DNA from: Naegleria gruberi
Lineage: Eukaryota
Assembly: GCA_000004985.1 (NCBI GenBank)
Contig: GG739544.1
Strand: one strand, 5' to 3'
Length of the DNA: 1,124 nt
Position 1 is the first letter of the stretch. Every line of letters begins with the position of its first letter. The position numbers and the translations under genes are program-made. The notes below the pieces were generated by a model. That model saw only the letters and a program-made list of their open reading frames with translations, did no database searches and was not told where the DNA came from. Shown piece by piece: positions 1 to 1,124 of the stretch.

Positions 1-590
1 TCCAAACCCAAACCCAAACCCAAACCCAAACCCAAACCCAAACCCAAACCCAAACCCAAACCCAAACCCAAACCCAAACCCAAACCCAAACCCAAACCCA
101 AACCCAAACCCAAACCCAAACCCAAACCCAAACCCAAACCCAAACCCAAACCCAAACCCAAACCCAAACCCAAACCCAAACCCAAACCCAAACCCAAACC
201 CAAACCCAAACCCAAACCCAAACCCAACCCAAACCCAAACCCAAACCCAAACCCAAACCCAAACCCAAACCCAAACCCAAACCCAACCCAAACCCAAACC
301 CAAACCCAAACCCAAACCCAAACCCAAACCCAAACCCAAACCCAAACCCAAACCCAAACCCAAACCCAAACCCAAACCCAAACCCAAACCCAAACCCAAA
401 CCCAAACCCAAACCCAAACCCAAACCCAAACCCAAACCCAAACCCAAACCCAAACCCAAACCCAAACCCAAACCCAAACCCAAACCCAAACCCAAACCCA
501 AACCCAAACCCAAACCCAAACCCAACCAAAACCCAAAACCCAAACCCAACCCAAACCCAAACCCAAACCCAAACCCCCAACCCCCAACCA
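1..590. repeat. Telomeric tandem repeat (CCCAAA)n, about 98 units, written as the C-strand. The G-strand TTTGGG lies on the minus strand and runs 5'->3' toward position 1, so this is a left chromosome terminus.
   Basis: Directly seen. Apart from a single T at position 1, bases 1-590 contain only C and A, in a strict 6-bp period of CCCAAA. Two interior 5-bp units (CCCAA) sit at 223-227 and 282-286. The innermost 521-590 is degenerate: cccaa / ccaaaa / cccaaaa / cccaaa / cccaa / cccaaa x4 / cccccaa / cccccaa / cca. A sharp transition to mixed-composition sequence follows at 591 (ttacttgcaaattgtgcc...). A C3A3/T3G3 unit is of the ciliate T2-4G3-4 type; TTTGGG is one of the two units reported for Paramecium telomeres. 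It is not TTAGGG, TTTAGGG or TTGGGG. Confidence 0.9.
521..590. repeat. Degenerate telomere-proximal (innermost) repeat zone with variant units CCCAA, CCAAAA, CCCAAAA and CCCCCAA
   Basis: Directly seen: cccaaccaaaacccaaaacccaaacccaacccaaacccaaacccaaacccaaacccccaacccccaacca. Variant units concentrated at the internal edge of a telomere array are typical. The oldest repeats accumulate mutations or reflect the earliest, more error-prone rounds of synthesis. Confidence 0.75.
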
Positions 591-719
591 TTACTTGCAA
601 ATTGTGCCGATTTTAGTCAATTGCAACATTTGAATTTGAGAAGTAATGGAATTAATTTTGAAGGAATTAATGCTCTTTCAAAGAGTGAATTTATCAAGAA
701 TTTGAAAAGTTTTGAGATT
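591..719 (+). CDS. Segment A (codons in register with position 591) of a 5'-truncated RNI-like LRR protein. Translation: [43 protein letters not shown], followed by TAA TAA. There is no start codon; the frame stays open upstream through the whole telomere array.
   Basis: Translating codons starting at 591 (tta ctt gca aat tgt gcc gat ttt agt caa ttg caa cat ttg aat ttg aga agt aat gga att aat ttt gaa gga att aat gct ctt tca aag agt gaa ttt atc aag aat ttg aaa agt ttt gag att) gives a clean 27-aa LRR unit, [27 protein letters not shown]. The start of the next unit, LKSFEI, follows. There is no in-frame ATG between the telomere junction and the double stop at 720-725. Under the standard code this ORF has no internal stops. 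Confidence 0.6.
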
Positions 720-720
720 T

Positions 721-1124
721 AATAATTTGGGAAAGGAAAGTTTTGAAGTTTTAACAGAAAGTGAAAATTTCAAAAATTTAACAGAACTCAATTTGTACAA
801 TTCCACAAATGCATCTAGTAATCGTCCTAGACGTGCGTTCATGATGGAGTATAGAACAAATGACGAATCTTATCAGAAATTGGTAAAAAGTCCCTATTTA
901 AAAAATTTGAAAAGTTTGAATTTGAGATATTGTGATATTGGAAATGCATTCGCAATAGAGCTTTCGAATAATATTGAAATGAGGAATTTAACAACACTCA
1001 ATCTGCAGCATAACTATATCGGAGATGAAGGCCTTAGACATTTATCCACGAGCACACATTTGTCAAATTTAACAAATTTAAACTTGCAATTTAATTGTAT
1101 CTCTGTGGAAGGATCTTTACACAT
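721..1124 (+). CDS. Segment B (+1 register relative to segment A) of the same RNI-like LRR protein. It is partial and continues beyond the 3' end of the window. Translation: NNLGKESFEVLTESENFKN LTELNLYNSTNASSNRPRRAFMMEYRTNDESYQKLVKSPYLKN LKSLNLRYCDIGNAFAIELSNNIEMRN LTTLNLQHNYIGDEGLRHLSTSTHLSN LTNLNLQFNCISVEGSLH...
   Basis: This frame is open from 706 to the end of the window (last full codon 1120-1122), about 139 codons with no stop. Clear RNI-type LRR periodicity appears as L[KT]xLNLxxNxIGxxGxxxLxxxxxxxN at 907-987, 988-1068 and 1069 onward. One expanded unit (781-906, 42 aa) carries a 15-residue insertion, NASSNRPRRAFMMEY, that is more GC-rich than its surroundings. The motif IGDEG...L matches the ribonuclease-inhibitor / NLR-type LRR class. 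All Gln codons are CAA or CAG. A long LRR-consistent ORF in AT-rich DNA is very unlikely by chance. Confidence 0.75.

What the first reader, a model, noticed from the sequence alone, without database searches (positions are those of the whole stretch)
560..640. Telomere repeats abut LRR coding sequence with no start codon, promoter or subtelomeric spacer: signature of chromosome breakage healed by de novo telomere addition inside a gene
The LRR reading frame that begins at 591 has no ATG before the frameshift at ~720. Its frame stays open into the CCCAAA array, which cannot supply a start. The first recognisable LRR unit starts within 15 codons of the junction, so the N-terminal part of the protein and all 5' regulatory sequence are missing. 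Natural chromosome ends normally have subtelomeric spacer or repeat sequence between the telomere and the first gene. A telomere sitting directly on mid-gene coding sequence is what de novo telomere addition at a breakage site produces. Examples are ciliate macronuclear chromosome fragmentation (notably imprecise in Paramecium) and terminal-deletion healing in other eukaryotes. The degenerate innermost units (CCCCCAA x2, then CCA) at 574-590 are consistent with the first, error-prone rounds of telomerase synthesis primed on a non-telomeric end.
Basis: partly seen in the sequence, partly recalled or inferred. Interest (0 to 1): 0.7.

Follow-up and report, generated by a model that had tools for sequence, protein, structure and literature searches.

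The report
Telomere capping a truncated Naegleria gene
The window is DNA of the amoeba Naegleria gruberi in which about 590 bases of its telomere repeat sit directly on the middle of a known F-box/LRR gene, the pattern left when a broken chromosome is capped with a new telomere; this is well known in other organisms and could not be confirmed here with sequencing reads.

Summary
Positions 2-590 are a C/A-only array (89 CCCAAA units plus variants). Unique AT-rich DNA starts at 591 and encodes LRRs.

The organism is not a ciliate. The coding part matches Naegleria gruberi NAEGRDRAFT_47484, a 1018-aa F-box + LRR protein. Window 712-1122 equals residues 155-291 (137/137 identical). Window 591-710 equals residues 113-152 with one change (G121S). 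TTTGGG is the published candidate telomere repeat of N. gruberi.

The copy lacks the first 112 codons, including the F-box, plus the start codon and promoter. The break falls inside the first LRR. At most 1 nt is shared with the intact gene beyond the junction. The "frameshift at ~720" is a net 5-nt deletion at 710-713.

The array has the orientation of a true chromosome end, and 7 of its 9 variant units lie in the 12 units next to the junction. That pattern fits a real telomere base better than a cloning chimera.

Best reading: a healed terminal truncation that left a pseudogene, as seen at Plasmodium falciparum chromosome ends. No genomic DNA or reads were available. An artefact, an interstitial array, or telomere capture by recombination cannot be excluded. 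It is a new example of a known kind, of modest interest.

The parts
2..573 (+). Telomeric C-strand array, (CCCAAA)n = (TTTGGG)n on the minus strand. It runs to the window edge. Sporadic variants are CCCAA at 223, 282, 521 and 545, CCAAAA at 526 and CCCAAAA at 532.
   Evidence: TRF period 6, 96.3 copies, 97% matches. Unit parse. TTTGGG is the published candidate N. gruberi telomere repeat (PMC3622300).
574..590 (+). Innermost aberrant units, CCCCCAA CCCCCAA CCA. On the minus strand, reading outward from the gene: ...GCAAGTAA T GG TTGGGGG TTGGGGG TTTGGG...
   Evidence: They belong to a degenerate proximal zone (521-590) that holds 7 of the 9 variant units within the last 12 of 99 units, hypergeometric p=1.9e-6.
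590..591 (.). Telomere/gene junction (breakpoint), between codons K112 and L113 of the intact protein, inside the first LRR (FNYIGNKGVK|LLANC).
   Evidence: tblastn alignment starts at L113 = window 591. At most 1 nt (A590) can match any DNA encoding GVK. No AG acceptor precedes 591.
591..710 (+). Remnant coding sequence in frame 591, equal to NAEGRDRAFT_47484 residues 113-152. One substitution, G121S (AGT at 615-617).
   Evidence: tblastn of P0001 against the window; alignment A1.
710..713 (+). Site of a net 5-nt deletion (TTTT run) that removes Leu-Asn of KSLNLRF and shifts the frame by +1. An intact twin of the motif (AAAAGTTTGAATTTGAGA) is at 909-926.
   Evidence: A single contiguous 5-nt deletion from DNA encoding NLKSLNLRFNN reproduces window 699-726 (12 possible reference DNAs, including the one that uses the twin's codons). 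The ortholog P0008 also has SLNLRF, so the window state is derived.
712..1122 (+). Remnant coding sequence in frame 592, equal to NAEGRDRAFT_47484 residues 155-291 (137/137 identical). It runs off the window end.
   Evidence: tblastn; phmmer E=4.1e-99; Pfam LRR_6, LRR_4 and LRR_1.

Best explanation
The window is a chromosome end of Naegleria gruberi, or of a strain almost identical to NEG-M. A double-strand break occurred inside the first leucine-rich repeat of one copy of the F-box/LRR gene NAEGRDRAFT_47484. That copy could be an allele or a recent duplicate. Everything distal to the break was lost: the first 112 codons with the F-box, the start codon and the promoter. The centromere-proximal broken end (minus strand ...GCAAGTAA(T)-3') was capped by synthesis of TTTGGG repeats, most likely by telomerase with essentially no template match. 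The first units were aberrant (GG, TTGGGGG, TTGGGGG), followed by about 95 regular units. The remaining 3' part of the gene is a promoterless pseudogene, and it also carries a 5-nt frameshifting deletion and one missense difference.

Shown: the identity of the gene, the truncation point, the lack of spacer, the array polarity, the degenerate base and the deletion. Inferred: that the array is truly terminal, that telomerase made it de novo, that the event happened in vivo, and whether the copy is an allele or a duplicate.
For: - Intact counterpart exists: P0001 = XP_002679900.1 (1018 aa), on a 602 kb contig.
- Window 712-1122 equals residues 155-291 at 137/137. Window 591-710 equals residues 113-152 with 1 difference.
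- The missing N-terminus is conserved in the ortholog P0008 and carries the F-box (PF00646, residues 16-52, 21.8 bits against a 20.5 cut-off).
- The break lies inside a repeat unit, not at a domain or exon boundary. No splice acceptor is present. The ortholog is intronless.
- At most 1 nt of possible identity to the reference lies beyond the junction.
- TTTGGG was independently proposed as the N. gruberi telomere, from terminal position and orientation in the assembly.
- The polarity (C-strand 5'->3' running into unique DNA) is that of a genuine end. It excludes ligation of a telomere tip to a foreign fragment (inference).
- Variant units cluster at the junction side, p=1.9e-6. That is expected at a real telomere base and not at a random cut through a homogeneous array.
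- A frameshift in the remnant fits relaxed constraint after truncation.
- Naegleria is described as a heterozygous diploid with aneuploidy, loss of heterozygosity and strain-variable karyotypes, so loss of a chromosome tip on one homologue is tolerable (PMC9928731).
- The same architecture is accepted as telomere healing in P. falciparum 3D7 (PMC5550746).
Against: - No reads, mate pairs or second assembly could be examined, so the junction rests on one 1124-nt record. Its short length suggests a small unplaced scaffold (inference).
- The array reaches the window edge, so its terminal position is not shown.
- The reference gene's DNA and its position and orientation on the 602 kb contig could not be retrieved. 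The prediction that its 5' end faces a chromosome end is therefore untested.
- TTTGGG as the Naegleria telomere is an in-silico candidate only.
- Telomerase in Naegleria was not verified here (one search was uninformative).
- The first added units are not canonical, so a simple template-aligned addition is not demonstrated.
- G121S and the 5-nt deletion could be errors in a low-coverage sequence.
Confidence: 0.58

Rival explanations
1. Cloning, read or assembly chimera. A fragment broken at the base of a real telomere was ligated in vitro, or joined in silico, to a sheared fragment of NAEGRDRAFT_47484. No such junction exists in the cell.
For: The record is only 1124 nt and is not merged with the 602 kb contig that carries the intact gene. 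No independent copy of the junction was found in any searchable collection. The two small differences from the reference could be read errors.
Against: The polarity is that of a true proximal flank, which happens by chance half the time and excludes tip ligation. The junction coincides with the degenerate base of the array (7 of 9 variants in the last 12 units, p=1.9e-6). A random shear through a telomere of about 600 nt would usually leave pure CCCAAA at the joint. The copy differs from the reference by a frameshifting deletion, which is unexpected if it were simply a piece of the functional locus.
Confidence: 0.2
2. A real chromosome end, but the junction was made by recombination rather than telomerase. 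Possible routes are telomere capture, break-induced replication from another end, non-allelic exchange, or retroposition of a 5'-truncated cDNA onto a chromosome end followed by recapping. In this reading the window is a subtelomeric partial duplicate, and the resident gene was never broken.
For: An intact copy exists. The copy is diverged by one missense change and an indel. The aberrant CCCCCAA CCCCCAA CCA block could be the inherited base of another telomere rather than a fresh telomerase product. 5' truncation is also typical of retroposed copies, and the ortholog is intronless, so a processed copy would look the same.
Against: There is no homology tract between the gene and telomeric repeats to drive recombination, with at most 1 nt of overlap. 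No other protein at >=90% identity is in the P0001 cluster. The window ends before any poly(A) tail or inner telomere block could be seen, so there is nothing positive for retroposition.
Confidence: 0.12
3. An interstitial telomeric repeat block. A long TTTGGG array was inserted into one allele of the gene, for example during double-strand-break repair, and the 5' part of the gene lies beyond the window's left edge.
For: The array runs to the window edge, so a left flank cannot be excluded. Fulneckova et al. note that many genomes also contain internal telomeric blocks longer than 100 bp.
Against: The array is at least 589 nt long, nearly pure, and degenerate only on the gene side. The reference allele has no insertion. 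From general knowledge, repair-associated insertions are usually a few repeats long.
Confidence: 0.06
4. Programmed macronuclear chromosome fragmentation in a ciliate (Paramecium-like).
For: Paramecium telomeres contain TTTGGG units, and its telomere addition sites are imprecise (general knowledge).
Against: The coding sequence is 137/137 identical to a Naegleria gruberi protein. The array is about 90% pure CCCAAA with no CCCCAA units. There are no in-frame TAA/TAG codons, and all 5 Gln codons are CAA/CAG in 177 codons.
Confidence: 0.01

Closest known systems
Telomere healing of subtelomeric breaks in Plasmodium falciparum (Calhoun et al. 2017, PMC5550746; earlier work by Pologe & Ravetch and by Scherf & Mattei recalled from memory)
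   Same: [quoted passage not shown] It is seen in a reference genome and in long-cultured clonal lines.
   Different: [quoted passage not shown] Here the first units are aberrant (GG, TTGGGGG x2), the overlap is at most 1 nt, and the template RNA is unknown. P. falciparum blood stages are haploid, while Naegleria is at least diploid. The Plasmodium cases are confirmed by long reads and this one is not.
De novo telomere addition on transgene arrays in Acanthamoeba castellanii (PMC11995660)
   Same: A free-living amoeba adds telomere repeats to non-telomeric DNA ends, with no common sequence motif at the junctions.
   Different: That substrate is introduced plasmid DNA kept as linear episomes, not a native chromosome. 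Acanthamoeba belongs to Amoebozoa, which is unrelated to Heterolobosea.
Yeast de novo telomere addition at double-strand breaks (SiRTA sites; PMC8012806, PMC10055226)
   Same: [quoted passage not shown]
   Different: Yeast strongly prefers TG-rich seed sequences. The retained end here (..GCAAGTAA) is not G/T-rich.
Ciliate macronuclear chromosome fragmentation (Paramecium, Tetrahymena)
   Same: Telomeres are added to non-telomeric ends without a seed. Paramecium uses TTTGGG among its repeat units (general knowledge).
   Different: That process is programmed, developmental and genome-wide, in organisms with two kinds of nuclei and a reassigned genetic code. This window is from Naegleria, which has none of these features.

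Membership tests
Healed chromosome break / neotelomere (de novo telomere addition product) | An array of the species' telomere repeat in end-type polarity (C-rich strand 5'->3' running into unique DNA) | tested here: met
   (CCCAAA)n at 2-590 followed by unique DNA. TTTGGG is the candidate N. gruberi telomere.
Healed chromosome break / neotelomere (de novo telomere addition product) | Repeats joined directly to sequence that is internal to an intact gene or locus elsewhere, with the distal part missing | tested here: met
   The window starts at codon 113 of the 1018-aa NAEGRDRAFT_47484, with at most 1 nt of possible identity beyond the junction. This was shown at protein level only, because the reference DNA was not retrievable.
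Healed chromosome break / neotelomere (de novo telomere addition product) | Absence of the species' normal subtelomeric elements | not testable with these tools
Coding sequence does start immediately at 591.
Healed chromosome break / neotelomere (de novo telomere addition product) | The array is physically terminal on the DNA molecule | not testable with these tools
   The array runs to window position 1-2. No reads or longer contigs were available.
Healed chromosome break / neotelomere (de novo telomere addition product) | The broken 3' end pairs with the telomerase RNA template and the first added bases are in register | tested here: inconclusive
   The end is ..GCAAGTAA(T), followed by GG TTGGGGG TTGGGGG TTTGGG. 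There is at most 1 nt of overlap, the first units are non-canonical, and the Naegleria telomerase RNA is unknown.
Ciliate macronuclear fragmentation end | Sequence derives from a ciliate (reassigned TAA/TAG codons; C4A2 or mixed C4A2/C3A3 telomere) | tested here: not met
   137/137 identity to a Naegleria gruberi protein. 0 TAA/TAG in 177 codons and 5/5 Gln codons are CAA/CAG. No CCCCAA units.
F-box/LRR protein gene (RI-type LRR, Pfam LRR_6) | Tandem LRR_6-type repeats | tested here: met
   LRR_6 E=1.9e-15, 56.1 bits against a 23.4 cut-off, 4 stretches.
F-box/LRR protein gene (RI-type LRR, Pfam LRR_6) | N-terminal F-box and an intact open reading frame with a start codon | tested here: not met
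   The F-box is at residues 16-52 of P0001, upstream of the breakpoint at residue 113. There is no in-frame ATG in 591-719, and there is a frameshift at 710-713. The window copy is a pseudogene fragment, not a functional member.
Interstitial telomeric sequence | Non-telomeric DNA on both sides of the array | not testable with these tools
   Only the right flank is in the window.

The most novel reading that the evidence does not exclude
Naegleria gruberi chromosomes break and are re-capped with TTTGGG repeats inside genes often enough to leave several such neotelomeres in a clonal laboratory strain. In that case telomere healing would be a regular driver of the strain-to-strain karyotype variation, aneuploidy and loss of heterozygosity reported for the genus. 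This window would then be the first molecular footprint of it, and the first in-sequence evidence that TTTGGG is a functional, de novo synthesised telomere in Heterolobosea.
Probability: 0.07. Interest if true: 0.6.

Novelty: new member of a known kind. Interest (0 to 1): 0.3.

Why it matters
If the junction is real, it is direct sequence evidence that TTTGGG arrays in Naegleria can cap non-telomeric DNA. That would move TTTGGG from an in-silico candidate towards a working telomere.

It would also document a terminal deletion in a widely used laboratory strain of a genus known for variable karyotypes.

In practical terms, this record should be annotated as a telomere-adjacent pseudogene fragment of NAEGRDRAFT_47484, not as a gene. 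It also gives a ready PCR assay (telomere primer x gene primer) for chromosome-end dynamics in Naegleria.

It does not reveal a new mechanism. The same architecture is well known in Plasmodium, yeast, ciliates and human terminal deletions.

Tried and rejected
- Ciliate reading. Translation with code 6 does not remove the frame problem, because TGA at 744 still stops frame 591. There are no in-frame TAA/TAG codons and the protein is from Naegleria. Rejected.
- Intron or 1-nt slip as the cause of the frame change. The window is 5 nt shorter than the intact coding sequence, so an intron, which would add sequence, cannot explain it. A single 5-nt deletion suffices.
- Upstream exon plus intron at the junction. 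There is no AG before 591, the alignment to P0001 is continuous from 591, and the ortholog is one uninterrupted ORF. Rejected.
- Word-indexed protein search, run twice. It missed even the identical protein P0001, so it gave no route to paralogues or contigs. Only the exhaustive HMMER search found the match.
- Fetching the reference locus. The look-up of encoding contigs has no record for P0001.
- Two metagenome scans, one with a junction 40-mer and one with a wobble-degenerate pattern of the non-LRR insert. Both returned 0 hits.
- Viral contigs. No relative of the protein was found. The seven contigs with (CCCAAA)8 or longer carry short (36-108 nt) internal runs flanked by unique DNA on both sides, so they are not telomeres. 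Irrelevant.
- Rfam and tRNA scans found nothing credible. SCARNA7 scored 14.2 bits against a gathering score of 65.
- Literature on Naegleria chromosome ends, subtelomeres or telomerase. Only the 2013 in-silico TTTGGG call was found. The 2010 genome paper and the 2011 review are not held.

Full report
**What is in the window**

The 1124-nt window has two parts.

Positions 2-590 contain only C and A. TRF reports a period-6 array at 2-576 (96.3 copies, 97% matches, score 1106) and a period-7 row at 562-589. Parsed as C-run/A-run units, there are 99 units:
- 89 CCCAAA
- 4 CCCAA (at 223, 282, 521, 545)
- one CCAAAA (526) and one CCCAAAA (532)
- two CCCCCAA (574, 581)
- a final CCA (588)
- a truncated first unit

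The first G or T after position 1 is at 591. From 591 the DNA is unique and 29.8% G+C.

**Coding content**

Frame 591 reads [43 protein letters not shown] and then hits TAA at 720. Frame 592 is open from 706 to the end of the window and reads ...[14 protein letters not shown]...CISVEGSLH. Pfam calls LRR_6 at E=1.9e-15 (56.1 bits, cut-off 23.4), plus LRR_4 and LRR_1. No ATG lies in frame 591 between 591 and 720. The ATGs at 646 and 670 are in frame 592 and terminate at TGA 703.

**Whose DNA it is**

The word-indexed protein search found nothing. The exhaustive HMMER search of 1.84 billion representatives gave one outstanding hit, P0001 (E=4.1e-99), which aligns over the whole query. P0001 is Naegleria gruberi XP_002679900.1 / NAEGRDRAFT_47484. 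It is a 1018-aa "F-box domain-containing protein", found on a 602,266-bp contig, and it is alone in its 90% cluster.

tblastn of P0001 against the window gave these results:
- Window 712-1122 equals residues 155-291, 137/137 identical.
- Window 591-710 equals residues 113-152, with one difference (G121S, AGT at 615-617).

Fulneckova et al. 2013 independently proposed TTTGGG as the candidate telomere repeat of N. gruberi. They based this on the position and orientation of such arrays in the genome assembly, and they stress that experimental confirmation is lacking (PMC3622300). Gene and repeat thus point to the same organism.

A ciliate origin is excluded. It is also disfavoured by 0 in-frame TAA/TAG codons, by 5/5 Gln codons being CAA/CAG, and by the absence of CCCCAA units.

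**What is missing**

The window copy begins at codon 113. The missing 112 residues include the F-box (PF00646, residues 16-52, 21.8 bits against a 20.5 cut-off). This N-terminal region is conserved in an environmental ortholog, P0008 (56% identical over the aligned N-terminal ~300 residues, alignment A1). P0008 is encoded as one uninterrupted ORF on ENA contig L008 (190-2109).

The breakpoint (..FNYIGNKGVK|LLANC..) lies inside the first LRR, not at a domain boundary. No AG acceptor precedes 591 (aacca|tta), and 591-719 aligns without interruption to the reference protein. An upstream exon joined by an intron is therefore ruled out. Enumerating all DNAs that encode GVK shows that at most 1 nt (A590) could be shared with the intact gene beyond the junction.

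**The "frameshift"**

P0001 and the ortholog both read KSLNLRF. The window reads AAA AGT T|TTG AGA TTT, so it lacks Leu-Asn and has one extra T, a net loss of 5 nt. One contiguous 5-nt deletion at 711-713 from DNA encoding NLKSLNLRFNN reproduces window 699-726. Twelve candidate reference DNAs allow this, including AAAAGTTTGAATTTGAGA, which is present intact at window 909-926. This is a derived, inactivating lesion. It is not an intron and not a programmed shift.

**Is the junction biological?**

Two features of the sequence argue that it is.

First, polarity. The C-rich strand runs 5'->3' into unique DNA, so the gene occupies the centromere-proximal flank of a telomere. Ligation of a natural telomere tip to a foreign fragment would give the opposite arrangement.

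Second, the array is not uniform. Seven of the nine variant units lie in the last 12 of 99 units next to the junction (hypergeometric p=1.9e-6; permutation p=1.3e-4). Real telomeres are degenerate at their base. A random shear through a telomere of about 600 nt would normally leave pure repeats at the joint.

In addition, the frameshift fits a remnant that is no longer under selection. None of this replaces read-level evidence, which I could not obtain:
- The reference locus is not on record.
- Two metagenome scans found nothing.
- The second word-indexed search failed to return even P0001.

**Mechanism**

The most likely history is a double-strand break, or terminal erosion, in one copy of NAEGRDRAFT_47484, followed by loss of the distal fragment. 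TTTGGG repeats were then added to the retained 3' end (minus strand ...CACAATTTGCAAGTAA(T)-3', followed by GG TTGGGGG TTGGGGG TTTGGG...).

Naegleria is reported to be a heterozygous diploid with aneuploidy, loss of heterozygosity and strain-variable karyotypes (PMC9928731). A terminal deletion on one homologue would therefore be tolerated. The two small differences from the reference could be allelic.

The aberrant first units could have three origins, and this cannot be decided here:
- later mutation in the non-turned-over base of the telomere
- a base inherited from another telomere by recombination

**Comparison with known systems**

The architecture matches telomere healing in P. falciparum. 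Five of 28 ends in the 3D7 reference lack subtelomeric elements and have telomere repeats fused directly to or beside coding sequence. Four of these lie inside truncated var genes, making pseudogenes, and further events arise in culture (PMC5550746). There the junctions are all in one template register (first bases GGGTT), which is not seen here.

Acanthamoeba adds telomeres to transgene ends with no common junction motif (PMC11995660). Yeast de novo addition prefers TG-rich seeds, and the retained end here lacks one. Ciliate programmed fragmentation works similarly at the chemical level, but the membership test fails on organism, code and repeat type.

**Verdict**

- The organism is Naegleria, not a ciliate.
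- The frameshift is a 5-nt deletion.
- 112 residues, including the F-box, are missing.

Whether the junction exists in cells, is terminal, and was made by telomerase remains inferred. I put about 0.58 on a genuine healed break, about 0.2 on a library or assembly chimera, about 0.12 on recombination, duplication or retroposition at a real end, and about 0.06 on an interstitial block. It is a new instance of a well-known phenomenon in a lineage where it has not, to my knowledge, been described. Interest is modest.

Noticed in passing
window 699-726 and 900-932: The 5-nt deletion lies in a short direct repeat (TTTGAATTTGA). An intact twin of the same 18-nt motif (AAAAGTTTGAATTTGAGA, encoding KSLNLR) occurs 200 nt downstream in a later LRR unit. 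The site looks prone to slippage. Gene conversion between repeat units could also be considered.
   Followed up: partly
window 1: The first base is T where the repeat phase predicts C (tCCAAACCC...). It could be a low-quality end base, a vector or trim remnant, or a variant unit.
   Followed up: no
window 223 and 282: Two isolated CCCAA units (one A short) lie 59 nt apart in an otherwise perfect distal array. They could be homopolymer read errors or true variants, and this cannot be decided without reads.
   Followed up: no
window 784-870 (P0001 residues ~179-208): One LRR unit carries a ~26-residue non-LRR insert (NSTNASSNRPRRAFMMEYRTNDESYQ). An insert of the same length and position, with a partly conserved sequence, is present in the ortholog P0008 (alignment A1). 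It appears to be a family-specific irregular repeat of unknown role.
   Followed up: partly
P0001 residues ~650-1018 (not in window): The C-terminal ~370 residues of the intact Naegleria protein have no Pfam match at E<=0.01, and P0008 (639 aa) ends before this region. This extra C-terminal domain is uncharacterised.
   Followed up: no
L008 (ENA ERZ27315067 k141_1865794) 190-2109: An environmental metagenome contig encodes a clear ortholog of the Naegleria F-box/LRR protein as a single intronless ORF. It presumably comes from another Naegleria-like heterolobosean.
   Followed up: partly
L004 4109-4161 and L006 8990-9042 (IMG/VR contigs): Two viral contigs from different metagenomes, one of them a giant-virus MAG, share identical flanks around an internal (CCCAAA)8-9 run. 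Other giant-virus MAG contigs (L002, L003, L007) carry similar short internal runs. These are not telomeres and are probably coding or simple repeats.
   Followed up: partly
tool behaviour (vs 14): The word-indexed protein search returned no hit or only weak hits for queries that contain 137-220 residues identical to a protein in its own collection (P0001). Repeat-rich LRR queries seem to defeat the word index. Only the exhaustive HMMER search found the match.
   Followed up: yes
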